A stretch of 30,965 bases of DNA from a virus, in UHGV virus genome UHGV-0305615; one strand, 5' to 3'. A model generated the notes under the pieces. The model had not been told where the DNA came from, did no database searches, and saw only the letters and a list, made by a program, of their open reading frames with translations. Positions 592 to 30,834 of the stretch are shown piece by piece. The position numbers were made by a program, and so were the translations under genes. Numbering within the stretch: position 1 is the stretch's first letter; each line of letters begins with the position of its first letter.

Positions 592-915
592 GATGACCTC
601 CTGTTTGTTTTTAGTTACGAAAACCAGTTAGTAGCTGGTGATCGGGTGTCAACTAGAGCACAAACAGTAGCTCCGGGCATATTCCCCTTTCGGGTGTTGT
701 ATTACGCCTCTCCACCCGACCTTTGTACGGATGTGACTATGCCAGATTGCAGGCATAAAAAAGCCGCAAAGCTATCGGGTGCGGATGACCGCTGTTTGTT
801 TTCTAGTGCGGTCAGTATGCGATAGCTCTGGCGGCATTGTCAAATCATGCGCCATTGAGTCCAGCAATCTCTGCAATACCAATAGCGAGATAATCGCGAT
901 TCGTCAGGCGTGATT

Positions 916-4680: not shown

Positions 4681-4695
4681 TTACCGTTGAGGTAA
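4681..4695. promoter_or_regulatory. Predicted operator (dyad TTACCGTTGAGGTAA), leftward early promoter region
   Basis: Exact TTACC-N5-GGTAA dyad just downstream of a leftward TTGACA -35 (rc of 4718-4723). Confidence 0.5.
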
Positions 4696-4742: not shown

Positions 4743-4757
4743 TTACCCATAAGGTAA
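4743..4757. promoter_or_regulatory. Predicted operator (dyad TTACCCATAAGGTAA)
   Basis: Exact TTACC-N5-GGTAA dyad between repressor-gene terminator and leftward promoter. Confidence 0.5.
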
Positions 4758-4814: not shown

Positions 4815-5399
4815 TTATTGTTTGTTTTTTTCGTTCTGGTTGATGACAAATTCAATGTAACTTTCGATCTTTGCCTTCTCTGTTTCAGGTAACAATGCGT
4901 AGCGCGAGCGGTCATAGTTGATAGTTGCAGGGTCATGCGGATGAATCAGTAGTTCATATCCGTGACGCCCGAATGCAGATGCAACATTCTCCAGGGTGGA
5001 AATGGAAACGCTGACTTCATTGTTTAACAGGCGGCTTATTGTCACCTGGGCGACGCCGGATGCGCGGTGAAGTTTTCCCTGAGTTGAAAGGTCGCGGCTT
5101 TCACTCATCCAGCGTTCCAGGTTGTGAGCTGCCAGCTGACCAATGTCGCTTGGGCCGACAGGCTGAAAACCTTCCTGAGAAAGCGAGCGATCGATATCAA
5201 GCCAGTTACGGGGTTTATTGGCGGCAGCTTCAATTTTTCGCGCAACCTGGTCGCCGATAACCTTCTTGCCAAGAGCCCAGCGGTTTACCAGATTTGCCTG
5301 AGTTCCAAGTTTTTCTGCCATCCGCGTCTGAACACCATTGAATTCACGGTCGATCAAGTCGTTGAGATTTTGCCTGCGGACGTCCTGGATACTTTTCAT
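4815..5399 (-). CDS. Prophage repressor, CI-like, two HTH domains, no peptidase S24 (autocleavage) domain
   Basis: 194 aa; two XRE-like HTH stretches (MAEKLGTQANLVNRWALGKK... and ASGVAQVTISRLLNNEVSVSISTLENVAS...); divergent from Cro-like gene; dyad operators on both sides. Confidence 0.7.
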   Translation of the reverse strand: MKSIQDVRRQNLNDLIDREFNGVQTRMAEKLGTQANLVNRWALGKKVIGDQVARKIEAAANKPRNWLDIDRSLSQEGFQPVGPSDIGQLAAHNLERWMSESRDLSTQGKLHRASGVAQVTISRLLNNEVSVSISTLENVASAFGRHGYELLIHPHDPATINYDRSRYALLPETEKAKIESYIEFVINQNEKNKQ

Positions 5400-5454: not shown

Positions 5455-5469
5455 TTACCCAACAGGTAA
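5455..5469. promoter_or_regulatory. Predicted operator (dyad TTACCCAACAGGTAA) in repressor/cro intergenic region
   Basis: Exact TTACC-N5-GGTAA dyad. Confidence 0.55.
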
Positions 5470-5502: not shown

Positions 5503-5517
5503 TTACCTTATGGGTGA
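5503..5517. promoter_or_regulatory. Predicted operator (TTACCTTATGGGTGA) overlapping rightward promoter
   Basis: One mismatch in right half; lies within the spacer of a TTGATT -35 / AT-rich -10 upstream of the Cro-like gene. Confidence 0.45.
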
Positions 5518-5829: not shown

Positions 5830-5934
5830 ATATCTATTCGTACCTCAAAGGTAATAAAAAACCAAATCTGGTTGATCTTTTTTTTGTGTCAGCACAAAAT
5901 GACCGTAATCCCAATACTAATAACAGGGCTTACC

Positions 5935-6150: not shown

Positions 6151-6942
6151 ATGAGCAGACATGCAACAGATTGGGCCTGGGAGACAGATCCAGGTAGCTC
6201 GTCATTAAAGCTCATACTGCTCTCGATGGCTGACAGAGCCGATGAATATAACCTCTGCTACCCCAGCATAGAACGCCTCGTTAAAGACACTTGCCTGAAT
6301 AAAAAAACCGTGCAGGCCGGGCTTATATCGCTCATGAAAATGGGGCTTATTTCAGATACCGGAGAGAGAAAGGGAGCGACGAAAAGAGTGCGGGTTTTCT
6401 CTCTTAATATAACCAAAAACGGGAACATTAAAGGCAACCGGGAAGGGGGTAATGAACCCGAAAACGGTAATGTTACCGAAAACGGGAATATACCCAAAAA
6501 CGGGATGTTGAATGATCCCAAAAACGGGATCCAGAACCAGTCATATAACCAGTCATTTAACCAAGAGAGGGAGAGCAGGACAAAAACCGGGAATTCTGTG
6601 CCTCATGACCCCGGCGCAAACAACGCCGTGATGAATAACTTTGTTCCTCCTGGTGGGCCAGGGCAATTAGGCAAATTTGTCATGCATGAACAATGGCAAC
6701 CATCAGATGACTTTCTTCGGAAAAGCTCATTGCAGGGAATCTACCTGGACAGTCTGCCAACGGCACAGGAACTTGCAGAGTTCAGAATTTACTGGATGGC
6801 TGAGGGTAAGGCATACCATCAGGCACAGTGGGAGCAGAAGCTGGCAAGGCGGCTGCAGATTAGCAGACAGAAGCAACCAACATTACCTGATAACAACGTT
6901 CCGCACTGGAACAGCCCTGAAGCGTGGGAGGATTTCTTGTGA
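6151..6942 (+). CDS. Replication initiator, lambda-O-like (HTH N-terminus, internal iterons)
   Basis: 263 aa; GGAG RBS; N-terminal HTH-like LILLSMADRADEYNLCYPSIERLVKDTCLNKKTVQAGL; internal DNA iterons produce an Asn/Gly/Lys-rich low-complexity linker; immediately upstream of P-like gene. Confidence 0.65.
   Translation: MSRHATDWAWETDPGSSSLKLILLSMADRADEYNLCYPSIERLVKDTCLNKKTVQAGLISLMKMGLISDTGERKGATKRVRVFSLNITKNGNIKGNREGGNEPENGNVTENGNIPKNGMLNDPKNGIQNQSYNQSFNQERESRTKTGNSVPHDPGANNAVMNNFVPPGGPGQLGKFVMHEQWQPSDDFLRKSSLQGIYLDSLPTAQELAEFRIYWMAEGKAYHQAQWEQKLARRLQISRQKQPTLPDNNVPHWNSPEAWEDFL
6413..6530 (+). repeat. Iteron array (five direct repeats, core CCmAAAACGGkAA) inside the O-like gene; candidate replication origin
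   Basis: Repeats starting at 6413, 6457, 6476, 6493 and 6517. Confidence 0.55.
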
Positions 6943-7724: not shown

Positions 7725-7761
7725 TACCAGCGCGATAGCGCATTTTTTTACGTCTTGATAA

Positions 7762-7776
7762 TTACCTGTTGGGTAA
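7762..7776. promoter_or_regulatory. Predicted operator (dyad TTACCTGTTGGGTAA) filling a promoter spacer
   Basis: Exact dyad lying between TTGATA (7755-7760) and TAAAAT (7777-7782). Confidence 0.55.
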
Positions 7777-7823
7777 TAAAATATTCTAAAATCTATTGAT
7801 TTCGTGTATTATGTGGTTTTTAA

Positions 7824-7838
7824 TTACCTTAGGGGTAA
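7824..7838. promoter_or_regulatory. Predicted operator (dyad TTACCTTAGGGGTAA) 4 nt upstream of ATG 7842
   Basis: Exact dyad. Confidence 0.5.
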
Positions 7839-7841
7839 ATC

Positions 7842-8186
7842 ATGAGAAAACAGATACAGGCTCTTGGTCGACTCAAAACAGGCCAGATGAACAAAACAGA
7901 ATCTGCGTATTGCCAGCACCTTGAGCTGCGTAAACGTGCAGGGGAAATCGCCTGGTATCGATTCGAGGGTATCAAGCTGCGGTTAGCTGATAACACGTTC
8001 TATACGCCAGATTTCGCTGTGATGCTCGCCACCGGAGAGATGGAACTGCACGAAGTGAAAGGTTTCTGGACCGACGACGCCAGGGTGAAAACCAAAGTAG
8101 CCGCAGATCAGTATCCGTTCCGAATCATCGGGGTAACGGTTAAACCAAAGAAAGCAGGTGGCGGCTGGAACATCGAAGAGTTCTGA
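7842..8186 (+). CDS. Hypothetical phage protein (114 aa)
   Basis: Complete ORF; first gene after the third operator-bearing promoter; no confidently recognised domain. Confidence 0.6.
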   Translation: MRKQIQALGRLKTGQMNKTESAYCQHLELRKRAGEIAWYRFEGIKLRLADNTFYTPDFAVMLATGEMELHEVKGFWTDDARVKTKVAADQYPFRIIGVTVKPKKAGGGWNIEEF

Positions 8187-8247
8187 ATCGACGATCTTTT
8201 TAGTTATCAATGTAATCAATAAGTTATGTGGATAAGCGAGGGTAAAG

Positions 8248-8754
8248 ATGAAACCGAGCTACGAAGAACTTGAAGAGCAACTGAACAGATCGCGGCGTCT
8301 ATGTGATGCCGCGCTGGCCAATGAGCGGTCTTGGGAAACAGCCATGATGCAGGCATGCGGTGAAGACGGTCCGAAGTCAGTAGCTGATAAGTTTGCGGAA
8401 CTTGAAGCCAGATGCGCGGCGCTGGCGGCGGAGAATACGGAGCTGAAGTCTGTGCACCCTCAACCATTCGGAGCTGAGATGATGAAGGCTCTTGATGCGT
8501 ATGAGAAGCATCAGGATGAAGTGCCAGAGACAGGAATGCTCAATGCATTTTTCATCTTGCGCGACAGCATCCGTGTTGAAACGCCAGCCACCGATGCTTT
8601 CCTGGCTGAAGTCCGGGCGCAGGGATTGGAGATGTTTGCACAGAAATGTAACTCAAAATCCGAACAGTCGCTTGCATCTGATATACGCGATAACTGGAAA
8701 CTACTCGGTGAGCATGCGACTGACTTTGCCGCAGAGCTTCGCAAAGGAGAGTGA
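8248..8754 (+). CDS. Hypothetical phage protein (168 aa), coiled-coil-like N-terminus
   Basis: ATG with GAGGG RBS; acidic, Ala/Glu-rich. Confidence 0.6.
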   Translation: MKPSYEELEEQLNRSRRLCDAALANERSWETAMMQACGEDGPKSVADKFAELEARCAALAAENTELKSVHPQPFGAEMMKALDAYEKHQDEVPETGMLNAFFILRDSIRVETPATDAFLAEVRAQGLEMFAQKCNSKSEQSLASDIRDNWKLLGEHATDFAAELRKGE

Positions 8755-8755
8755 T

Positions 8756-9574
8756 ATGACCACTATTACCAGAGAAAGCTCGAAGATTAAATCATTCATC
8801 AATGGCTTCCTGAGCGACCCGGCGCACGGTAATCAATCTTTAGACAGTCTGCTTGCTGATGTGTTTCGTATCGCACTGGCATCGTTGGAAGCAGAGCCTG
8901 TTCTGTATCAGTCCTGCACTCGCCCCACCTGGAATAGCGGTGTTCCGTGGACGGAATGGAAAGAACGAAGTCGTGAGTGCTACGAAGACGATTTGCGCTT
9001 TACAGACACGCCTGACCATGCCGGTTGGATATACAAATGTCGAAAACTATATACCACTCCGCCAGCGCCGATAGCGTTAGAGGCCATTGAAAACGCAATT
9101 GAATACATCCGCAGTATCGCTTTTCACATCGATGAAGACGATTACCACGGCAAACATATTGCGTATTTCATGCAGCAAGCATTGGCCTGGCTGGAAGGGC
9201 ATTCATGCAGCGACGACAGACTGGGTAAAGCCGAGAATCAACCAGTACGCGGCAACCAGGCTGCCGAATCCAATCGCGGTAATGAGTGGACTGGCAATCC
9301 TGATATTGATAACGCCATCATCATGCTCGACCGCATAGATACGGCGGAAAGTTACGATGATGACCGTATTGAGGCTGTTAAGGTTGTTTTGCGTAGACTG
9401 GCTGGCAACTCTCCGGTAACTCCGGATGGTTGGGTTATGGTCCCTAAACAGGTAACGCCGGAAATCAGCAACGCGATAAACGTTGTGGGTCAACGCTGTA
9501 CATGTGGGAATTGCTCTCAGCGGTTGTGGGATTTATTACTCGACGCCACACAGCAAGGGGTTAACCGTGGCTAA
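8756..9574 (+). CDS. Hypothetical phage protein (272 aa) with C-terminal CxCGNC motif
   Basis: Internal ATG 8756 of track ORF 8492..9574, preceded by AAAGGAGAG and abutting the previous stop. Confidence 0.6.
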   Translation: MTTITRESSKIKSFINGFLSDPAHGNQSLDSLLADVFRIALASLEAEPVLYQSCTRPTWNSGVPWTEWKERSRECYEDDLRFTDTPDHAGWIYKCRKLYTTPPAPIALEAIENAIEYIRSIAFHIDEDDYHGKHIAYFMQQALAWLEGHSCSDDRLGKAENQPVRGNQAAESNRGNEWTGNPDIDNAIIMLDRIDTAESYDDDRIEAVKVVLRRLAGNSPVTPDGWVMVPKQVTPEISNAINVVGQRCTCGNCSQRLWDLLLDATQQGVNRG

Positions 9575-9848
9575 CCTGCAACTTGCCGTCAAAGGTGAAT
9601 ACTTCGATGCCATGATTCGCGGAGAGAAAACGGAAGAGTATCGCCTGTGTAATGACTACTGGAATAAGCGAATTATGTTCCGGGAGTATGACCGCCTGAT
9701 TATCACAAAGGGATATCCGAAGCGTGACGATTCCAGCCGCAGAATTGACGTTCCGTATGGCGGCTATGAAATCAAGACAATCACACATCCGCACTTCGGC
9801 GATAAACCGGTAAAGGTGTACGCGATAAAGGTGAATATTGATGGCTAA
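9567..9848 (+). CDS. Hypothetical protein (93 aa), possible ASCH/PUA-like fold
   Basis: GTG 9567 with AAGGGG RBS, overlapping previous stop; fold guess from LAVKGEYFDAMIRGEKTEEYR pattern only. Confidence 0.45.
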   Translation: MANLQLAVKGEYFDAMIRGEKTEEYRLCNDYWNKRIMFREYDRLIITKGYPKRDDSSRRIDVPYGGYEIKTITHPHFGDKPVKVYAIKVNIDG

Positions 9849-10179
9849 ATCAGCAGCAGAGCGCAAAGCCGCTCAGAGAGCCAGACAAGCTGCATCCGGT
9901 GTACGTAAGCTGGAGATTGTGCTGGATGCTCAGGAAATTGAAATGCTGGAGCGTAGCTGTGCCACGCGTCGCCCCGGGCGTGCGCCTTACGAATTTGGTG
10001 AGTATATAGCGTTACTGATCCGCCAGGATGATGCACGCGTGCACGGGCGTATAAAATCGATCAGCAGAAAACGTTGCGGTAAGTGCGGCGAGAGAGTTCC
10101 TGTGAATTCATGCCCGTGTAATGGTGACTCGCAATGCTGGGTGACTAAAGGCTGGCATGAAACGAAATTAATAGTGTGA
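9841..10179 (+). CDS. Hypothetical protein (112 aa): basic N-terminus plus C-terminal zinc ribbon
   Basis: ATG 9841 with AAAGGTGAA RBS; CGKCGERVPVNSCPCNG; stop codon lies inside the 12-bp palindrome. Confidence 0.55.
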   Translation: MAKSAAERKAAQRARQAASGVRKLEIVLDAQEIEMLERSCATRRPGRAPYEFGEYIALLIRQDDARVHGRIKSISRKRCGKCGERVPVNSCPCNGDSQCWVTKGWHETKLIV

Positions 10180-10187
10180 CATGTCAC
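10176..10187. repeat. Perfect 12-bp palindrome GTGACATGTCAC (copy 1 of 3)
   Basis: Exact sequence; identical copies at 12627-12638 and 29977-29988. Confidence 0.6.
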
Positions 10188-10196
10188 GAAGGTGTT

Positions 10197-10409
10197 ATGC
10201 CAAAAATACGCTACGACCTTGAAGATATGAGAGATAACTCAGCAAATTTTCCGAAAGAGGTTAAATTTCTCATGCATAAGTATGGTTGCGCTAGGAGGGA
10301 TATAGTTATCGACAGTCAGCACCCTTGCGGCGAGGATGTAATTTTCATTCGCGGTAAATGGGAAGGGTATCTTGACGAGAGTTTTTACGATGAATTTGAT
10401 GGACTTTGA
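10197..10409 (+). CDS. Hypothetical small protein (70 aa)
   Basis: ATG 10197 within track ORF 10176..10409; GAAGG upstream with short spacing. Confidence 0.4.
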   Translation: MPKIRYDLEDMRDNSANFPKEVKFLMHKYGCARRDIVIDSQHPCGEDVIFIRGKWEGYLDESFYDEFDGL

Positions 10410-10414
10410 ATACT

Positions 10415-10440
10415 GCCGCCAACTATGGCGGCTTTATTTT
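10415..10440 (+). terminator. Rho-independent terminator separating early genes from packaging genes
   Basis: GCCGCC-AACTAT-GGCGGC followed by TTTATTTT. Confidence 0.65.
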
Positions 10441-10451
10441 GCATGGTACTA

Positions 10452-10466
10452 TTACCAAAACGGTAA
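10452..10466. promoter_or_regulatory. Predicted operator (dyad TTACCAAAACGGTAA) upstream of TerS
   Basis: Exact dyad between terminator and TerS start; extra TTACC half-site at 10469-10473. Confidence 0.5.
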
Positions 10467-10483
10467 CTATTACCACGGTGGTT

Positions 10484-11080
10484 ATGATGCCTGCTGAACC
10501 TAAAACCTATAAACGCAAATCAACGCAATTTAAGCCACTAACAGCAATGCAGGAGGCTTATTGCCAGTCATACATCAAAACGCCTGAAAACCAGACTCAG
10601 GCAGCGATTAACGCAGGATTCTCCCCAAATACAGCGGCAGTTAAAGCCAGTGTCATGATGCGCGATGAACGCATTCAAAAACGGATTGCCGAGTTGATGG
10701 AGGAGCGCAACAAACGAATGCGCGTCAGTGCTGATTACGTTCTCATGCGCCTGGTGGAGATCGACCAGATGGACGTGATCGACATCCTCAACGACGATGG
10801 GAGCCTTAAGCCAATCCGCGAGTGGCCGAAAATCTGGCGCACTACGCTTAGTGGCTTTGATCTGTCATCGACCATCATGAACATGAACGAGGATTCGATA
10901 GAGACAATCCTCAAAAAAATTAAATGGCCTGACAAGGTGAAGAACCTCGAACTGATTGGTAAGCACGTCGACGTCAACGCATTCAAAGAACGCCTGGATG
11001 TTAATGTGAATGTGACAATTGCTGATCGCATAGCGGCAGCCAGGAAGAGACTGAAAGAACGTCAGGATGGCAATCAGTGA
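10484..11080 (+). CDS. Terminase small subunit
   Basis: Track ORF 10406..11080 trimmed to ATG 10484 because the 5' part contains the terminator and operator; family guess from sequence character and position before TerL. Confidence 0.65.
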   Translation: MMPAEPKTYKRKSTQFKPLTAMQEAYCQSYIKTPENQTQAAINAGFSPNTAAVKASVMMRDERIQKRIAELMEERNKRMRVSADYVLMRLVEIDQMDVIDILNDDGSLKPIREWPKIWRTTLSGFDLSSTIMNMNEDSIETILKKIKWPDKVKNLELIGKHVDVNAFKERLDVNVNVTIADRIAAARKRLKERQDGNQ

Positions 11081-12552
11081 CAGATACAGCGTTATCTCCT
11101 GAAGAGCAGTTAATCGAGGATATTGCAGGGTTCACTCACGATCCGCTTGGCTATGCCCTCTATGCGTTCCCGTGGGGGGAACAGGGGACTGAACTGGCAC
11201 ATGCCACCGGCCCACGTCAGTGGCAGGCTGATGCGTTCCGAGAGATACGTGATCACCTGCAGAATCCAGAGACGCGCTATCAGCCGCTTATGCTGGCACG
11301 CGCTTCTGGTCACGGTATTGGTAAATCCGCATTCATCTCAATGCTGATCAACTGGGGCATGTCCACTTGCGAGGATTGTAAGGTCGTGGTGACCGCCAAC
11401 ACCGACAACCAGCTACGAACGAAGACCTGGCCGGAAATTATCAAGTGGTCGAACCTTGCTATCACGAAAGACTGGTTTACCTGTACCGCTACCGCGATGT
11501 ACAGCAATGATCCTGGGCACGACAAGCGGTGGCGAGCTGACGCAATCCCCTGGTCTGAGCACAACACTGAGGCATTCGCCGGACTACACAACGAGCGCAA
11601 ACGCATCATCGTGGTATTCGATGAAGCGTCGAACATTGCGGATCTGGTGTGGGAAGTTGCTGAGGGTGCGCTTACGGACGAAGACACTGAGATTATCTGG
11701 GTGGCGTTCGGAAACCCTACACGTAACACCGGGCGTTTCCGCGAATGTTTCCGCAAATATAAACACCGCTGGAAAACTGCGCAGATTGACAGCCGGACGG
11801 TGGAAGGCACTAACAAACAGCAGTTGCAGAAATGGGTCGATGACTACGGGGAAGACAGCGACTTCGTTAAAATCCGTGTGCGCGGCATATTCCCTGATGC
11901 ATCTGAATTGCAGTTTATCCCTACCGGTCTTACTGATGAGGCAATGAAACGGGTGGTAACCGCTGCGCAGGTGGCGCATGCTCCGGTGATAATCGGTGTT
12001 GACCCTGCATATTCAGGCGTTGATGACGCGGTGATATACCTGCGGCAGGGGCTACACAGTAAGGTGCTGTGGACTGGCAACAAGACTACCGACGATCTGA
12101 TTATGGCGAAGCGTATCGCTGACTTTGAAGACCAGTATCAGGCTGACGCGGTGTTCATCGACTTCGGTTACGGTACCGGTCTGAAGTCAATCGGTGATGG
12201 TTGGGGGCGCACATGGCAACTTGTTCCGTTCGGTGGCGCGTCTACTGACCCGCAGATGCTCAACAAGCGTGGGGAGATGTTCAACTCATGCAAGACATGG
12301 CTGAGGCTGGGCGGGATGCTGGATGACCAGGAAACAGCGGACGACCTGTCGGCGGCAGAGTATAAAGTTCGAGTGGACGGTAAAATCGTTATCGAACCGA
12401 AGGAAGATATCAAGGAGCGGCTTGGGCGTTCTCCTGGTAAAGGCGATGCGCTACTGCTGACGTTTGCTTTCCCTGTGTCAAAGCGTCTGCGAATTCCCGG
12501 GCAGCAGAACCAGCAAGGCAAGGCCATCACAGATTACGATCCCTATGCTTAA
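11077..12552 (+). CDS. Terminase large subunit
   Basis: 491 aa; Walker-A-like ARASGHGIGKS; GTG start overlapping TerS stop with AGGATGG RBS. Confidence 0.9.
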   Translation: MTDTALSPEEQLIEDIAGFTHDPLGYALYAFPWGEQGTELAHATGPRQWQADAFREIRDHLQNPETRYQPLMLARASGHGIGKSAFISMLINWGMSTCEDCKVVVTANTDNQLRTKTWPEIIKWSNLAITKDWFTCTATAMYSNDPGHDKRWRADAIPWSEHNTEAFAGLHNERKRIIVVFDEASNIADLVWEVAEGALTDEDTEIIWVAFGNPTRNTGRFRECFRKYKHRWKTAQIDSRTVEGTNKQQLQKWVDDYGEDSDFVKIRVRGIFPDASELQFIPTGLTDEAMKRVVTAAQVAHAPVIIGVDPAYSGVDDAVIYLRQGLHSKVLWTGNKTTDDLIMAKRIADFEDQYQADAVFIDFGYGTGLKSIGDGWGRTWQLVPFGGASTDPQMLNKRGEMFNSCKTWLRLGGMLDDQETADDLSAAEYKVRVDGKIVIEPKEDIKERLGRSPGKGDALLLTFAFPVSKRLRIPGQQNQQGKAITDYDPYA

Positions 12553-12596: not shown

Positions 12597-12626
12597 AAAC
12601 AAAGCCAGCTCATCGGCTGGCTGTTT
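12597..12626. terminator. Bidirectional rho-independent terminator between convergent TerL and minus-strand ORF
   Basis: GCCAGC-TCATCG-GCTGGC hairpin (12604-12621) flanked by an A-run upstream and TGTTT downstream. Confidence 0.5.
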
Positions 12627-12638
12627 GTGACATGTCAC
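12627..12638. repeat. Perfect 12-bp palindrome GTGACATGTCAC (copy 2 of 3)
   Basis: Exact sequence. Confidence 0.6.
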
Positions 12639-12642
12639 GGTG

Positions 12643-13017
12643 TTACTTAATGGCATCAAATCCAGCGTTGATGGCTTCCGCAATATTGATGGCGCTTGTT
12701 TTATCGAAGTGCCCATTCTGAATAAGCGCCGCATGCAGGCATTGTAACTTCATGTTGTATAAGTGTTCGCTCATGTAATCATTATCACGTTTTTCCATTT
12801 CAGAATGTTGTGCTGTTATCCAGTCATGGAACGTAACGCTAGTACCATGGTCTTCGCTAAGAGTTAACCCGGCCAGTCCCTCACTCTGAATTACTTCGTA
12901 ATGCATTTCATTACCAGCAAAAACGCCATAAAAAACGCAGTCTTCAGCCTGAACGATACGAGAATATTTTAATGGCCATTCATTTAGATACTTAGCCAAC
13001 ATATCAATTGTTTTCAT
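12643..13017 (-). CDS. Hypothetical protein (124 aa), minus-strand insert between TerL and portal
   Basis: Complete ORF with AAGGTGAG RBS; lower GC than flanks; no recognised domain. Confidence 0.55.
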   Translation of the reverse strand: MKTIDMLAKYLNEWPLKYSRIVQAEDCVFYGVFAGNEMHYEVIQSEGLAGLTLSEDHGTSVTFHDWITAQHSEMEKRDNDYMSEHLYNMKLQCLHAALIQNGHFDKTSAINIAEAINAGFDAIK

Positions 13018-13215: not shown

Positions 13216-13292
13216 TGGCGTGGCATGCAGGATTCGAACCTGCGACCAACCGCTTAGAAGGCGGTTGCTCTGTCCGACTGAGCTAATGCCAC
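13216..13292 (-). tRNA. tRNA-Arg (anticodon UCU)
   Basis: 77-nt minus-strand sequence GTGGCATTAGCTCAGTCGGACAGAGCAACCGCCTTCTAAGCGGTTGGTCGCAGGTTCGAATCCTGCATGCCACGCCA folds as a cloverleaf: 7-bp acceptor stem, GCTC/GAGC D-stem, ACCGC/GCGGT anticodon stem with loop CTTCTAA, GCAGG/CCTGC T-stem with TTCGAAT loop, encoded CCA. Confidence 0.9.
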
Positions 13293-13614: not shown

Positions 13615-13629
13615 TTACCTGAAAGGTAA
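13615..13629. promoter_or_regulatory. Predicted operator (dyad TTACCTGAAAGGTAA) between tRNA leader and virion genes
   Basis: Exact dyad; a leftward TTGACA -35 (rc of 13646-13651) lies 17 bp away. Confidence 0.5.
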
Positions 13630-13940: not shown

Positions 13941-15620
13941 ATGGCGGAAACAACTAAAGAGCGATTGAACAAACAGTTCGCACAACTTGAAAGCGAGCGT
14001 CAGTCGTTCGAGCCGCACTGGCGCGAGTTGAGTGATTACATCAACCCGCGTGGTTCCCGCTTTCTGACTTCTGAGGTCAACCGTAACGATCGACGCAATA
14101 CACGCATTATTGATTCGACCGGGACTATGGCGGCGCGCACTCTCGCCAGCGGCATGATGTCAGGCATCACAAGCCCCGCGCGTCCGTGGTTTCGCCTGGC
14201 TACGCCAGATCCTGAAATGATGGATTATGGCCCTGTTAAGTTGTGGCTTGAGGCGGTGCAGAACCGCATGAACGATATGTTCAATAAGTCGAATCTCTAT
14301 CAGTCGCTGCCGCAGTTATACGGAAGCCTCGGCACATACAGCACTGGTGCAATGGCAGTGCTGGAGGATGACGAGGACATCATTCGCACAATGCCATTCC
14401 CGATAGGCAGTTACTACCTGGCTAACTCACCTCGTGGCAGTGTGGACACCTGTTTTCGCAAGTTCTCTATGACTGTTCGTCAGCTTGTTCAGGAGTTCGG
14501 GCTAAATAACGTCAGCGAATCCGTAAAAAGCATGTGGGAAAGCGGCACCTACGAGAAGTGGGTTGAAGTGATGCATTCGGTTTACCCGAACATTGACCGC
14601 GATACATCGAAGCTGGATAGCAAGAACAAGCCATTCAAATCGGTTTATTACGAGGTTGGTGGCGATAACGACAAGTTGTTGCGTGAGTCCGGATTCGATG
14701 AGTTTCCAATTATGGCTCCGCGCTGGGAAGTTAACGGCGAAGATGTTTATGGATCATCATGCCCGGGTATGCTGGCGCTTGGACCTGTTAAGGCATTGCA
14801 GCTTCTCCAGAAGCGCAAGTCGCAGTTGATTGATAAAGCCACCAATCCGCCGATGATTGCTCCGACTTCCCTCAAGAATCAGCGTGCCTCCCTTCTTCCT
14901 GGCGACATCACGTATATCGATCAGATTACTGGTCAGGATAGTTTCAGGCCTGCTTATCTGGTTAACCCCAGTACAGCAGATTTGGTGGCAGACATTCAGG
15001 ACACTCGTCAAATCATTAACAGCGCCTACTTTGTCGATCTGTTCATGATGTTGCAGAACATCAATACCCGCTCGATGCCTGTTGAAGCGGTGATCGAAAT
15101 GAAAGAAGAAAAACTTCTGATGTTGGGGCCGGTTCTGGAGCGTCTGAACGACGAATGTCTTAATCCTCTCATTGACCGCGCTTTCTCGATGATGGTGCGT
15201 AAAAACATGCTGCCGCCACCACCTGACGCGATGGAAGGTATGCCCCTGAAGGTCGAATACATTTCCGTCATGGCTCAGGCGCAGAAGTCTATCGGCCTGT
15301 CCAGTCTGGCATCCACGGTCAACTTCATTGGTCAACTTGCGCAAGCGAAACCAGAAGCTCTCGACAAACTCAACGTTGATCAGGCGATCGATGCATTCGC
15401 TGATATGTCCGGAGTGTCTCCAACCGTCATTGTTCCGCAGGAACAGGTTGAGCAGGCTCGCCAGCAACGGGCACAGCAACAACAGCAGCAACAAATGATG
15501 GCGATGGGGATGGCGGCGGCACAGGGTGCCAAGACGCTAAGCGAAGCTAAAACTTCGGATCCGAGTGTTTTGTCAGCTATGGCGAATGCATTTAGTGGTC
15601 AGGGTGGGCAATCACAATGA
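13941..15620 (+). CDS. Portal protein, T7 gp8-like
   Basis: 559 aa; GGAG RBS; Gln-rich C-terminus (QQRAQQQQQQQMMAMGMAAAQ) and overall layout resemble the remembered T7 connector. Confidence 0.8.
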   Translation: MAETTKERLNKQFAQLESERQSFEPHWRELSDYINPRGSRFLTSEVNRNDRRNTRIIDSTGTMAARTLASGMMSGITSPARPWFRLATPDPEMMDYGPVKLWLEAVQNRMNDMFNKSNLYQSLPQLYGSLGTYSTGAMAVLEDDEDIIRTMPFPIGSYYLANSPRGSVDTCFRKFSMTVRQLVQEFGLNNVSESVKSMWESGTYEKWVEVMHSVYPNIDRDTSKLDSKNKPFKSVYYEVGGDNDKLLRESGFDEFPIMAPRWEVNGEDVYGSSCPGMLALGPVKALQLLQKRKSQLIDKATNPPMIAPTSLKNQRASLLPGDITYIDQITGQDSFRPAYLVNPSTADLVADIQDTRQIINSAYFVDLFMMLQNINTRSMPVEAVIEMKEEKLLMLGPVLERLNDECLNPLIDRAFSMMVRKNMLPPPPDAMEGMPLKVEYISVMAQAQKSIGLSSLASTVNFIGQLAQAKPEALDKLNVDQAIDAFADMSGVSPTVIVPQEQVEQARQQRAQQQQQQQMMAMGMAAAQGAKTLSEAKTSDPSVLSAMANAFSGQGGQSQ

Positions 15621-15913
15621 CAGATTACGAAGACGATCAACTGAAAGAAGAAAACGCCCGTAAGCAACGTGACATGGCACAGCGTGAAATTGATGACATT
15701 CGCTTTGTCATGAGCAGTGAACAGGGGCGTCGCGTTGTCTGGTCGGTGCTGGAGAAAGGCCGGGTGTTTTCCGCTATCTCTCCGATGGATGCTATGGCAA
15801 TGGCATTTAATGAGGGGCAACGCAATCTGGCGCTGGAACTGTTTCAGCGCGTTATGGCGCATTGCCCTGAACAGTATTTGAAGATGGCCAAAGAGGCCAG
15901 TGAACAGGAGTGA
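15617..15913 (+). CDS. Hypothetical head-module protein (98 aa)
   Basis: Complete ORF overlapping the portal stop. Confidence 0.55.
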   Translation: MTDYEDDQLKEENARKQRDMAQREIDDIRFVMSSEQGRRVVWSVLEKGRVFSAISPMDAMAMAFNEGQRNLALELFQRVMAHCPEQYLKMAKEASEQE

Positions 15914-29513: not shown

Positions 29514-29525
29514 TAGGTGACCTTT

Positions 29526-29975
29526 ATGTTCAAGAAGATGATCAACAGATTAATCGGTGGTAAGGAGGTTAGCAATAAAATTCAACCTCTTATCTTTAAG
29601 GATAACTTTTCAGCTTTTGAGTATGCGTGTAAGTATCTTGACACAAGCCTTTCAGCCAATAAACCAATGCCAGCCATCATCATACCTGGTCCCAGTGGGG
29701 AACAGCCAGTTTTGCTAGATTCTGGAAGACAAAGGGCAATGCTGAAGGTGTGCTCAGCTGATGGTGGATTTTTTGTTATTGCCGATTCATCTTACAGCAA
29801 AGGACCAAAGCTGAGGATTGGTGATCTTGTTGCTTGGTTGCCTGTGAGTTATGCCGAAGAATTAACGGATAAAATAGAAGATCCTCGCTCCGCTATGGTT
29901 GGCTTTATATTGGGAACCATTCATCCTGAACTAACATCTACTGGCTGGAAGGGTAAAGAAAGATTTCGCAAGTAG
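29526..29975 (+). CDS. Hypothetical cytoplasmic protein (149 aa), AT-rich cargo gene
   Basis: ATG 29526 with AGGTGA RBS (track start 29517 is GTG); divergent from the secreted-protein gene with only ~12 bp between starts. Confidence 0.5.
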   Translation: MFKKMINRLIGGKEVSNKIQPLIFKDNFSAFEYACKYLDTSLSANKPMPAIIIPGPSGEQPVLLDSGRQRAMLKVCSADGGFFVIADSSYSKGPKLRIGDLVAWLPVSYAEELTDKIEDPRSAMVGFILGTIHPELTSTGWKGKERFRK

Positions 29976-29976
29976 C

Positions 29977-29988
29977 GTGACATGTCAC
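29977..29988. repeat. Perfect 12-bp palindrome GTGACATGTCAC (copy 3 of 3)
   Basis: Exact sequence, 1 nt after the TAG of the 149-aa gene. Confidence 0.6.
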
Positions 29989-30013
29989 AGGCCGCTTTCG
30001 CGGCCTTGTTTTT
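29989..30013 (+). terminator. Rho-independent terminator
   Basis: AGGCCGC-TTTC-GCGGCCT hairpin followed by TTGTTTTT. Confidence 0.6.
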
Positions 30014-30819: not shown

Positions 30820-30834
30820 TTACCTTTGGGGTAA
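30820..30834. promoter_or_regulatory. Predicted operator (dyad TTACCTTTGGGGTAA) abutting the -10 of the membrane-operon promoter
   Basis: Exact dyad; minus-strand promoter TTGCAG (rc of 30857-30862), 17-bp spacer, TACTAT (rc of 30834-30839). Confidence 0.5.

What the first reader, a model, noticed from the sequence alone, without database searches (positions are those of the whole stretch)
7842..10409. Block of six small early genes with no recognisable Q antiterminator; one zinc-ribbon protein ends inside palindrome copy 1
Where lambdoid phages carry nin genes and Q, this block has six tightly packed ORFs of unknown function. The 112-aa protein (9841-10179) combines a basic N-terminus with a C-terminal CxxC...CxC zinc ribbon, the general build of small phage late-gene activators, and its stop codon lies within the palindrome. 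It is a candidate late regulator whose site could be the palindrome, but that is speculation.
Basis: inference. Interest (0 to 1): 0.45.

Follow-up and report, generated by a model that had tools for sequence, protein, structure and literature searches.

The report
Phage DNA-binding protein with its own palindrome
The small zinc-ribbon protein of this epsilon15-like phage belongs to an uncharacterised family whose gene ends in, or sits near, the same 12-base palindrome in many unrelated temperate phages, so protein and palindrome are almost certainly a matched regulator and binding site, though what they do at these gene-block junctions is untested.

Summary
There are six packed + strand ORFs at 7842-10409, and the TGA of the 112-aa protein (10177-10179) lies inside GTGACATGTCAC (10176-10187). 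The window is a Uetakevirus (epsilon15/phiV10-like) phage with no Q.

GTGAC-N2-GTCAC overlaps or abuts the stop codon of homologues (27-62% identity) in ZF40, N15, a Yersinia P2-like phage, and Pseudomonas and Enterovibrio phage-plasmid-like elements. Other lineages carry tandem sites downstream. Only the 2-bp spacing is enriched, and lambda, P22 and P2 have none.

A confident AlphaFold model gives a ribbon-helix-helix N-terminal half plus a 4-Cys C-terminal zinc module. The half-sites equal those of E. coli matS (GTGACRNYGTCAC), but the spacer is 1 bp shorter, and no homology to MatP was detected.

The sites sit at operon ends, next to intrinsic terminators, and exactly at borders of variable cargo DNA.

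"Late activator" is not shown. The gene coexists with Q in N15 and ZF40. Site-to-promoter distances vary. The late operons here carry prophage-repressor operators. In Pseudomonas and Vibrio relatives, however, the gene does occupy the Q position.

My best guess is a junction-binding regulator acting as a roadblock or insulator. A Q-like positive role is the main rival.

The parts
7755..7782 (+). Sigma-70-like promoter (TTGATA-16-TAAAAT, 10 of 12) for the six-gene block. It follows a probable terminator after the P-like gene, read by eye here; phiV10 annotates one at the equivalent place.
   Evidence: sequence
7762..7838 (.). Two operator-like palindromes TTACC-N5-GGTAA (7762-7776 and 7824-7838). 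They overlap and follow the promoter. They probably bind the prophage repressor, so the block would be a separately repressed transcription unit.
   Evidence: 11 sites against 0.47 expected; the epsilon15 record annotates a repressor site at the equivalent place
7842..8186 (+). 114-aa DUF1064 protein, Holliday-junction-resolvase-like (PD-(D/E)XK type)
   Evidence: Pfam PF06356 E 3.7e-7; phrog_190 E 7e-43; phiV10 p45
8248..8754 (+). 168-aa Eae-like protein, function unknown
   Evidence: phrog_492 E 1.9e-30; phiV10 p46 'eae-like'
8756..9574 (+). 272-aa EaA/DUF551-like mosaic protein, function unknown
   Evidence: phrog_60 E 1.9e-24; DNA matches under features annotated 'EaA protein' and 'DUF551 domain-containing protein'
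9567..9848 (+). 93-aa ASCH-domain protein
   Evidence: phrog_625 E 2e-50; weak Pfam ASCH hit; phiV10 p54
9841..10179 (+). 112-aa ribbon-helix-helix plus 4-Cys zinc-module protein (phiV10 p55 / epsilon15 gp49 / N15 gp46 family). This is the proposed binder of the palindrome.
10176..10187 (.). Palindrome copy 1, GTGACATGTCAC. It contains the TGA stop of the 112-aa gene and ends 9 bp before the ATG of the next ORF. Sequence to its left is conserved among relatives and sequence to its right is variable.
10197..10409 (+). 70-aa ORF (phrog_1541, unknown function). It is a variable cargo gene: phiV10 and about two thirds of the close relatives examined have the deleted form, with only a remnant left.
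10415..10432 (+). Intrinsic-terminator-like hairpin (GCCGCCAACTATGGCGGC followed by TTTATTTT) between the early block and the terminase genes
   Evidence: epsilon15 annotates the equivalent terminator
10452..10484 (.). Two operator-like sites (10452-10466 and 10470-10484) just upstream of the probable true terS start (ATG 10486/10489). They mark a repressor-controlled late promoter region.
   Evidence: epsilon15 'protein_bind repressor' at 12-27 and terS start at 47
12603..12622 (.). Terminator hairpin between terL and the minus-strand cargo gene. The scan scores it on the minus strand.
   Evidence: sequence
12627..12638 (.). Palindrome copy 2. It lies 5 bp from the terminator hairpin and 4 bp from the stop of the minus-strand cargo gene 12643-13017. 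It sits exactly at the border between the conserved terL side and the variable cargo side.
15669..15680 (.). One-mismatch copy GTGACATGGCAC inside ORF 15617-15913. It is conserved in phiV10. The same variant is the partner site in the tandem pairs of P2-like phages.
29977..29988 (.). Palindrome copy 3. It starts 1 bp after the stop of cargo gene 29517-29975 and directly abuts a terminator. Homology to other Uetakeviruses begins within a few bases of this palindrome.
29989..30013 (+). Intrinsic terminator (AGGCCGC-TTTC-GCGGCCT followed by a T-run). Together with copy 3 it forms a roughly 61-bp island that is conserved in phiV10 between variable flanks.
   Evidence: phiV10 terminator annotation

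Best explanation
The 112-aa product of 9841-10179 is a sequence-specific DNA-binding protein. Its N-terminal half is a ribbon-helix-helix (RHH) domain, expected to dimerise, preceded by a conserved basic helix. Its C-terminal half is a 4-Cys zinc module. Its cognate site is the palindrome GTGAC-N2-GTCAC.

Gene and site form one conserved unit. This unit sits at the distal end of the early operon in many temperate phages.

In this phage the protein is made from a separately repressed early transcription unit with its own promoter and operators at 7755-7838. I propose that it binds three or four sites, all of which lie at ends of transcription units:
- its own stop codon, upstream of the terminator and the repressor-controlled late promoter of terS;
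- the terL end;
- the end of the virion-gene operon.
- The one-mismatch copy inside an ORF (15669) may be a fourth site.

There it would act as a junction regulator. I think a protein roadblock or insulator is most likely. It would reinforce the adjacent intrinsic terminators and keep early, late and oppositely oriented cargo transcription units from reading into one another. I do not think it is the switch that turns late genes on.

Late operons here appear to be controlled directly by the prophage repressor through TTACC-N5-GGTAA operators, which would explain the absence of Q.

Shown: the gene-site co-occurrence, the spacing specificity, the RHH fold, and the positions of the sites. Inferred: binding itself, dimerisation, and the roadblock function.
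For: 1. Gene-site coupling. An exact GTGAC-N2-GTCAC overlaps or abuts the stop codon of homologues in these genomes:
- epsilon15;
- an 86%-identity group;
- ZF40 gp22, 62% identity;
- N15 gp46, 35%;
- a Yersinia P2-like phage, 42%;
- P. fluorescens-group and P. lurida elements, and an Enterovibrio element, about 27-30%.
In another Pseudomonas lineage the site at the stop has one mismatch. One further lineage has it 38 bp inside the 3' end of the gene. By my calculation, about 8e-5 such sites are expected by chance per 80-bp window (80 x 4^-10).

2. Lineages without a site at the stop have tandem pairs downstream instead. The pairs are spaced 33 bp apart in 37 P2-like loci. They are spaced 23 bp apart in Serratia and Salmonella elements, upstream of the holin genes.

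3. Spacing specificity. In all genomes examined that carry the gene, only N2 is enriched: 45 exact sites, against 0-2 for each other spacing from N0 to N7. The inverted arrangement is essentially absent. Lambda, P22 and P2 (124 kb in total, none among the phage records that tblastn listed by name) have no exact site.

4. The arm sequence is fixed as GTGAC, not merely complementary, while the centre varies (AT, TG, GC, AC, CG, GG). The RNA hairpin is not unusually stable (z -1.6 and -0.7). This pattern fits recognition by a protein rather than an RNA structure.

6. Site positions. Copies 2 and 3 adjoin terminators at convergent junctions. In epsilon15 all three copies sit at the equivalent places. 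One N15 site lies between a gene stop and a terminator. Palindrome plus terminator is a conserved 61-bp island between variable flanks.

7. A late activator is not obviously required. There are 11 operator-like sites, including pairs upstream of this block and of terS. They match the repressor sites annotated in epsilon15.
Against: - No binding experiment exists, and no promoter or terminator here has been mapped.
- In epsilon15-like phages, blocking read-through at the early/late junction duplicates what the intrinsic terminator already does.
- In Pseudomonas, Enterovibrio and Vibrio relatives the gene sits exactly where lambda Q sits: last early gene, then a promoter, then terminators, then the lysis genes. 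No Q-like protein was recognised among the early products I tested there. That layout favours a positive role.
- Several sites lie 9-19 bp upstream of the next gene's start codon: window copy 1, N15 gene 47, and Vibrio K308 terS and gene 0032. These could instead point to control of the downstream gene's expression.
- The zinc module has no assigned role in the roadblock idea.
- Only three of at least six operon ends in epsilon15 carry a site.
Confidence: 0.4

Rival explanations
1. It is a positive late-gene regulator, a functional analogue of Q or an upstream activator. From the palindrome, the protein lets RNA polymerase reach the late genes. It could do this by making polymerase that passes the site resistant to the terminator that follows. 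Alternatively it could activate the late promoter from a distance.
For: - In four distant lineages the gene is the last early gene. After it come the palindrome, then one or two intrinsic terminators, then holin, lysin and terminase genes. A sigma-70-like promoter lies between site and terminators: the scan found one (10 of 12 matches) in the two Pseudomonas loci, and I read one by eye in the other two.
- No Q-like PHROG was found in the early products tested there.
- In Uetakeviruses the order is gene, site, terminator, terS.
- Sites immediately precede terminators at copy 3 and in N15.
- The C-terminal half weakly resembles the TraR/YbiI zinc finger, a family that binds RNA polymerase (E 0.02-0.035).
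Against: - The family coexists with Q-like proteins in N15 (gp40, phrog_304) and ZF40 (gp25). It also occurs in P2-like phages.
- The distance from the site to the -35 is variable: 51, 55, 66 and about 97 bp by my count on the sequences. In Uetakeviruses my estimates are -73, -91 and -277.
- In the Pseudomonas layout the late promoter lies downstream of the site, so polymerase starting there never crosses it.
- Copies 2 and 3 face minus-strand cargo genes, where read-through would only make antisense RNA.
- The TraR similarity is below significance, and there is no Pfam zf-dskA_traR hit.
Confidence: 0.25
2. It is a MatP/matS-like system. The protein organises or bridges phage DNA through dispersed matS-like sites. 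Alternatively it interferes with host MatP, MukBEF or divisome functions.
For: - The half-sites are identical to those of E. coli matS, GTGACRNYGTCAC (PMC6907758, Table 2).
- There are several dispersed sites per genome, and some are tandem pairs.
- Many hosts are enterobacteria and vibrios. From my own knowledge, these encode MatP.
Against: - The spacer is 2 bp, not 3. The matS-type N3 form is not enriched (1 site against 45).
- No sequence homology to MatP was detected (hhalign probability 0.7%; no MatP Pfam family among the 25 most frequent matches listed).
- The protein lacks MatP's four-helix bundle and coiled coil.
- The family also occurs in Pseudomonas. From my own knowledge, Pseudomonas lacks MatP.
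Confidence: 0.1
3. The palindrome is primarily a recombination or cassette-boundary signal at which cargo genes are exchanged. The small protein would be an accessory DNA-binding factor, or simply a cargo gene that travels with its own boundary.
For: Sequence identity among relatives breaks at the palindrome, or within a few bases of it.
- Copy 2: 5 distinct left flanks against 14 distinct right flanks. Conservation is 0.96-1.0 on the left and 0.60-0.67 on the right beyond the first 10 bases.
- Copy 1: the downstream ORF is present in some relatives and deleted in others.
- Copy 3: homology starts within a few bases of the palindrome.
- P2-like phages: the tandem sites end the conserved block. 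The sequence beyond them varies between loci, in the region between the early operon and the portal gene (P2 layout).
Against: - No recombinase is associated with the sites, and a 112-aa RHH/zinc protein has no catalytic domain.
- Sharp borders could be a by-product of a conserved functional element. Either it is the last piece of shared homology, or a tightly bound protein makes the site recombinogenic.
- Many sites are not at cargo borders. Examples are the ones inside N15 repA and inside an integrase gene in L141.
Confidence: 0.1
4. The palindrome has nothing to do with this protein. It would be an RNA hairpin, a site for a host factor, or a chance feature.
For: There is no direct binding evidence. 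Copy 3 together with its terminator folds well (z -2.4).
Against: - Co-occurrence with the gene holds in all 14 lineages examined, and there are no exact sites in three control phages.
- The arms are invariant in sequence, with no compensatory changes.
- The hairpin alone is not significant.
- Chance expectation is about 0.04 matches per window.
Confidence: 0.05

Closest known systems
Ribbon-helix-helix (CopG/Arc/MetJ) DNA-binding proteins, for example P22 Arc and Mnt, CopG, ParD/TacA antitoxins and NikR
   Same: The predicted beta-alpha-alpha fold of residues ~20-65 is the same, with a basic N-terminal arm or helix. The targets are short palindromic or tandem DNA sites. Tandem sites 23 or 33 bp apart suggest cooperative dimer-of-dimers binding, as in Arc and CopG (own knowledge).
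   Different: No Pfam RHH model reaches threshold; only 3 of 59 family members give weak RHH hits. The protein carries an extra C-terminal 4-Cys zinc module. Its site lies at the 3' end of its own gene, not at its promoter.
E. coli MatP / matS
   Same: The half-sites GTGAC/GTCAC are identical. MatP also has an RHH core, and the MatP-matS complex is among the structural hits. Both have several dispersed sites per replicon.
   Different: The site is 12 bp with a 2-bp spacer, against 13 bp with a 3-bp spacer in matS. There is no detectable sequence homology. The protein has no four-helix bundle or coiled coil, and has a zinc module instead. The family extends to Pseudomonas phages.
Lambda-type Q antiterminators (the Q-lambda, Q21 and Q82 families; N15 gp40)
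   Same: In several lineages the gene is the last early gene, directly upstream of a promoter-terminator-late-gene arrangement. It is a small protein with a zinc site, as Q-lambda is (own knowledge).
   Different: There is no sequence match to any Q family. The site is not embedded in the promoter at a fixed position. The protein coexists with a true Q in N15 and ZF40.
P2 Ogr / P4 Delta zinc-finger late activators
   Same: Both are small phage zinc proteins.
   Different: There is no Pfam or PHROG match. Ogr sites are TGT-N12-ACA near -55 (own knowledge; activator sites are annotated in P2). The present site is TGTGAC-N2-GTCACA at variable positions. P2-like phages carry this family in addition to their own late system.
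TraR/DksA-type C4 zinc-finger proteins (TraR, YbiI, P2 Orf82)
   Same: A family profile weakly aligns the region helix-CxxCG-x-IP...G...C with TraR and YbiI (E 0.02-0.035).

Membership tests
Q antiterminators (lambda, 21, 82 and N15 types) | Sequence membership in a Q family (Pfam or PHROG) | tested here: not met
   None of the six products, nor the other window proteins scanned, hits a Q family. The positive control N15 gp40 hits phrog_304 at E 3e-62.
Q antiterminators (lambda, 21, 82 and N15 types) | Gene directly upstream of a constitutive late promoter that is followed by a terminator and the late genes | tested here: inconclusive
   In the window a terminator (10415-10432) lies between the gene and terS, but no promoter was found between the site and the terminator. 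The feature is met in Pseudomonas relatives and partly met in the Enterovibrio relative.
Q antiterminators (lambda, 21, 82 and N15 types) | DNA binding element at a fixed position within or next to the late promoter | tested here: not met
   The distance from the palindrome to the -35 is 51, 55, 66 and ~97 bp in four lineages (my count on the sequences). It is far more variable among Uetakeviruses.
Q antiterminators (lambda, 21, 82 and N15 types) | Antitermination activity on RNA polymerase | not testable with these tools
   This needs in vitro transcription or reporter assays.
Ogr/Delta late activators | Ogr_Delta zinc-finger domain and a TGT-N12-ACA site near -55 | tested here: not met
   There is no Pfam or PHROG match. 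The site has TGT-N8-ACA geometry at variable positions.
Ribbon-helix-helix superfamily | Beta-alpha-alpha fold | tested here: met
Ribbon-helix-helix superfamily | Sequence match to an RHH profile | tested here: not met
   The best results are RHH_5 in 2 of 59 members (E 0.013) and RHH_1 in 1 of 59 (E 0.071), plus NCBIfam 'LexA regulated protein' at E 0.053. All are below the cut-offs.
Ribbon-helix-helix superfamily | Obligate dimer that inserts a two-stranded beta-ribbon into the major groove of a repeated or palindromic site | not testable with these tools
   Only a monomer could be modelled. A palindromic site is inferred from co-occurrence.
MatP/matS | 13-bp site GTGACRNYGTCAC | tested here: not met
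   The half-sites are the same, but the spacer is 2 bp. Counts are 45 exact N2 sites against 1 N3 site. The consensus comes from PMC6907758.
MatP/matS | MatP sequence and architecture (four-helix bundle + RHH + coiled coil) | tested here: not met
   hhalign gives probability 0.7%. No MatP family appears among the Pfam matches listed. The model has one N-terminal helix and a zinc module.
TraR/DksA zinc-finger proteins | zf-dskA_traR C4 finger | tested here: inconclusive
PHROG 536 / phiV10 p55 / epsilon15 gp49 / N15 gp46 family | Full-length sequence match | tested here: met
   phrog_536 at E 6.5e-54 over residues 1-111. There are 98-99% identical proteins in E. coli prophages. 152 clusters at 50% identity match at E <= 0.001.

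The most novel reading that the evidence does not exclude
The RHH/zinc-ribbon protein and its 12-bp matS-like palindrome form a previously unrecognised regulator-site system. It is shared by epsilon15-like, N15-like, P2-like, ZF40 and Pseudomonas/Vibrio phage-plasmid-like phages. It would work by a mechanism not yet described for phages. One possibility is a DNA-loaded factor that decides whether RNA polymerase stops or continues at operon junctions, in effect a fourth kind of late-gene antiterminator in the phages that lack Q. The other is a programmable protein roadblock that also defines where cargo genes are swapped.
Probability: 0.25. Interest if true: 0.8.

Novelty: new variant of a known kind. 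Interest (0 to 1): 0.6.

Why it matters
How epsilon15-like phages and many phage-plasmids time their late genes without a recognisable Q is unknown. This family is the only conserved candidate at the early/late junction in several of them.

The gene-site pairing gives a directly testable handle. It provides one small protein, one 12-bp site, and three sites in a 39-kb genome.

The sites coincide with the borders of variable cargo regions, including the variable region beyond the early operon of P2-like phages. From my own knowledge, that region is a known hotspot for anti-phage defence genes. The system may therefore also help explain how such islands are insulated from, or exchanged between, phage backbones.

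The identity of the half-sites with matS raises a further question. The phage protein might cross-talk with host MatP sites, or the two might share an ancestral mode of DNA recognition.

Tried and rejected
- AF2 with a shallow alignment (36 close sequences) gave an unusable model (pLDDT 61). It became confident only with 59 diverse representatives.
- Foldseek against PDB and against BFVD gave nothing beyond one weak RHH-like hit and a fragment of the same family. The afdb50 library was unavailable.
- phmmer of the protein against PDB sequences found nothing.
- The search for related loci with the family alignment returned only near-identical Uetakeviruses.
- The scan with P0245 found nothing, and the scan with P0169 found one locus.
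- Searching the paper library for the palindrome itself, for phage MatP-like proteins, and for Uetakevirus late transcription found nothing relevant. The one Uetakevirus regulation paper studied the repressor, antirepressor and integrase, not this gene.
- MatP homology was rejected on sequence.
- An RNA-hairpin reading was rejected: z-scores are not significant and the arms show no compensatory change.
- A pac or terminase-site reading was rejected, because cos phages (N15 and P2-like phages) carry the sites too.
- A fixed-geometry activator site was rejected on the variable distances.
- CRP (TGTGA-N6-TCACA) and LexA boxes were considered from memory and rejected on spacing.
- Rfam found no known RNA at any of the sites.

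Full report
WHAT THE WINDOW IS

Megablast and the annotated records show that the window is a Uetakevirus, that is, an epsilon15/phiV10-like temperate podovirus. Its layout is as follows:
- leftward early genes: an MT-A70 methylase, RecT and a PDDEXK exonuclease;
- an HTH repressor at 4815-5399 on the minus strand;
- O-like and P-like replication genes;
- the six-gene block of the finding;
- terS (10406/10486-11080), terL (11077-12552), then portal, capsid and tail genes.

THE OBSERVATION

All six ORFs exist as described. Five of the six products fall into named families or annotated relatives:
- DUF1064 / Holliday-junction-resolvase-like;
- Eae-like;
- EaA/DUF551-like;
- ASCH;
- phrog_536 'transcriptional regulator', which is the 112-aa protein (phiV10 p55 / epsilon15 gp49).
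The 70-aa product matches only phrog_1541, of unknown function.

The TGA of the 112-aa gene (10177-10179) is inside GTGACATGTCAC (10176-10187). This palindrome occurs perfectly three times (10176, 12627, 29977). A one-mismatch copy lies at 15669. About 0.04 matches are expected by chance.

No Q-type protein was detected among the window proteins scanned.

The block has its own promoter-like site (7755-7782). Two operator-like palindromes overlap and follow it.

THE PROTEIN FAMILY

The family is small but widespread. 711 clusters at 90% identity were found, and 152 representatives at 50% identity match at E <= 0.001. No Pfam or NCBIfam model reaches its cut-off.

Invariant positions are R13, C79, C82 and C99. 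A fourth Cys lies near position 91, and the N-terminus carries a conserved ERK-x2-QR-x-R segment.

A diverse alignment gave a confident AF2 model (pLDDT 90.7). It has helix 5-19, an extended segment 20-29, helices 30-42 and 52-74, a cysteine-rich loop 75-99 and helix 100-108.

A family profile weakly matches the TraR/YbiI zinc finger over the C-terminal half (E 0.02-0.035). I treat that only as a lead.

THE KEY RESULT: GENE AND PALINDROME TRAVEL TOGETHER

An exact GTGAC-N2-GTCAC overlaps or abuts the stop codon of the homologue in these genomes:
- epsilon15;
- an 86%-identity group of prophage contigs;
- Pectobacterium myovirus ZF40, gp22, 62% identity;
- the linear plasmid-prophage N15, gp46, 35% identity;
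- a P2-like Yersinia phage, 42% identity;
- P. fluorescens-group, P. lurida and Enterovibrio phage-plasmid-like elements, about 27-30% identity.

In another Pseudomonas lineage the site at the stop has one mismatch. One further lineage has the site 38 bp before the stop.

In most of these lineages the TGA of the left half-site is the stop codon itself.

The remaining lineages lack a site at the stop but have sites downstream:
- a P2-like lineage of 37 loci has a pair, GTGACATGGCAC plus GTGACATGTCAC, 33 bp apart;
- Serratia and Salmonella elements have pairs 23 bp apart, upstream of the holin genes;
- Vibrio phage K308 has three single sites, one of them ending 19 bp before the terS start codon.

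Only the 2-bp spacing is enriched: 45 exact sites, against 0-2 for any other spacing from 0 to 7 bp. The inverted arrangement is essentially absent. Lambda, P22 and P2 have no exact site in 124 kb.

The arms are constant in sequence while the centre varies, and the RNA hairpin alone is unremarkable. The signal therefore looks like a protein-recognised DNA site, and the co-inherited RHH protein is the obvious binder. This step is inferred, not shown.

RELATION TO matS

The E. coli MatP site is GTGACRNYGTCAC (PMC6907758, Table 2). It has the same half-sites with a spacer one base longer.

The phage genomes do not carry the 13-bp form. hhalign finds no homology to MatP. The architecture differs. 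The family also occurs in Pseudomonas, which from my own knowledge has no MatP.

I therefore record MatP/matS as the closest known protein-site pair in what is recognised. It is not a family to which this protein belongs.

WHERE THE SITES ARE

In this window and in epsilon15 and phiV10, the three sites lie at ends of + strand transcription units:
- at the end of the early block, upstream of a terminator and of the operator-bearing terS promoter region;
- next to the terminator after terL, 4 bp from the stop of a minus-strand cargo gene;
- 1 bp after the last gene of the virion operon, directly abutting a terminator that faces minus-strand cargo genes.

They are also mosaic borders:
- Among 80 close relatives the left flank of copy 2 is conserved (0.96-1.0). 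The right flank breaks into 14 different sequences.
- Copy 1 is followed either by the 70-aa ORF or by its deletion remnant.
- For copy 3, homology to other Uetakeviruses begins within a few bases of the palindrome. In phiV10 only the 61 bp of palindrome plus terminator is shared.
- In the P2-like lineage the second site of the tandem pair ends the conserved block. The sequence beyond it varies between loci, in the region between the early operon and the portal gene.

LATE-GENE CONTROL

The window has 11 TTACC-N5-GGTAA sites, against 0.47 expected. There are pairs at the immunity region, upstream of this block and upstream of terS. Single sites lie upstream of the portal operon and near 30820.

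The epsilon15 record annotates the equivalent sites as repressor-binding. Each operon thus appears to be repressed directly, which can account for the lack of Q.

Against the late-activator idea:
- N15 and ZF40 have both a Q-like gene and this gene.
- P2-like phages carry it too.
- Site-to-promoter distances are not fixed.

In its favour, in Pseudomonas, Enterovibrio and Vibrio elements the gene is the last early gene. After it come the site, then one or two intrinsic terminators, then the holin, lysin and terminase genes. The scan found a sigma-70-like promoter (10 of 12 matches) between site and terminators in the two Pseudomonas loci. I read a candidate promoter by eye in the other two lineages. 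That is the lambda Q / PR' / tR' layout, and no Q-like PHROG was found among their early products that I tested.

VERDICT

I consider the protein-palindrome pairing likely, at about 0.75. The function at the junctions is open.

I favour a roadblock or insulator role, at about 0.35-0.4 for the whole statement. It fits four things: the 3'-end and terminator-adjacent positions, the coexistence with Q and P2-type systems, the variable distances, and the usual repressor nature of RHH proteins.

A Q-like positive role is the main rival (0.25). A MatP-like organiser and a cassette-boundary signal are lesser rivals (0.1 each).

Its interpretation is partly supported: the link to the palindrome holds, but late activation is not established.

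Noticed in passing
window 4681-4695, 4743-4757, 5455-5469, 5503-5517, 5840-5854, 7762-7776, 7824-7838, 10452-10466, 10470-10484, 13615-13629, 30820-30834: There are eleven TTACC-N5-GGTAA palindromes against 0.47 expected. They lie at the immunity region and upstream of at least four other transcription units, including the terminase and portal operons. They match the repressor-binding sites annotated in epsilon15. The prophage repressor therefore seems to control every operon directly.
   Followed up: partly
window 10406-10489: The terS ORF as listed (and as annotated in phiV10) starts at TTG 10406. It would then contain a terminator-like hairpin (10415-10432) and two operator-like sites. The epsilon15 annotation and the Pfam match, which begins at residue 45, point to a start at ATG 10486/10489.
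   Followed up: partly
window 13219-13292 (-): Rfam finds a tRNA gene (73 bits) in the cargo island between terL and the portal operon.
   Followed up: no
window 632-721 (-): Rfam match to sRNA-Xcc1 (64.8 bits, gathering score 53) near the left end of the window.
   Followed up: no
window 6405-6530: Three or four direct repeats (TAATATAACCAAAAACGGGAA-like) lie inside the O-like replication gene. They look like origin iterons.
   Followed up: no
window 29517-29975 (+) and 12643-13017 (-): These are two cargo genes with no Pfam match. The DNA of 29517-29975 has no megablast match in the phage collection. Each ends within 1-4 bp of a palindrome copy.
   Followed up: partly
window 10188-10196 and 12639-12645: Copies 1 and 2 are both followed by GGTGTTA (after GAA in copy 1, directly in copy 2). 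The same extension recurs in many relatives after copy 2. In the RNA folds it pairs with the left arm of the palindrome. It may be a third, degenerate half-site (GTAAC on the other strand).
   Followed up: no
L005 10122-10139 (N15 record about 41124-41141): An 18-bp perfect palindrome, GTGCGACCATGGTCGCAC, ends 20 bp upstream of the annotated -35 of the N15 late promoter. It resembles the GTGAC/GTCAC motif with a CG inserted in each arm.
   Followed up: no
L135 10479-10500; L141 6132-6150; L140 about 6925-6940; L005 10190-10210: The first transcribed bases after the putative late -10 share a motif: TCTAGCGTGGTG in the two Pseudomonas elements, CAACGTGGTG in Enterovibrio and TTCTAAGTTGGG in N15. 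It may be a pause or loading signal for whatever antiterminates these late operons.
   Followed up: partly
L132 3621 and 18837; L133 13047 and 18837; L134 13046 and 18915: In one Pseudomonas lineage the site at the stop is GTGACAGGTAAC. A different 14-bp palindrome, CGTTACGCGTAACG, occurs twice per 20-kb locus. This may be a shifted half-site (GTTAC) that co-varies with the protein lineage.
   Followed up: no
cluster tables (Serratia, Salmonella, Pseudomonas): Many family members sit on contigs of 38-49 kb that also encode ParA-like proteins, and one is labelled as a plasmid. The family therefore seems common in phage-plasmids.
   Followed up: partly
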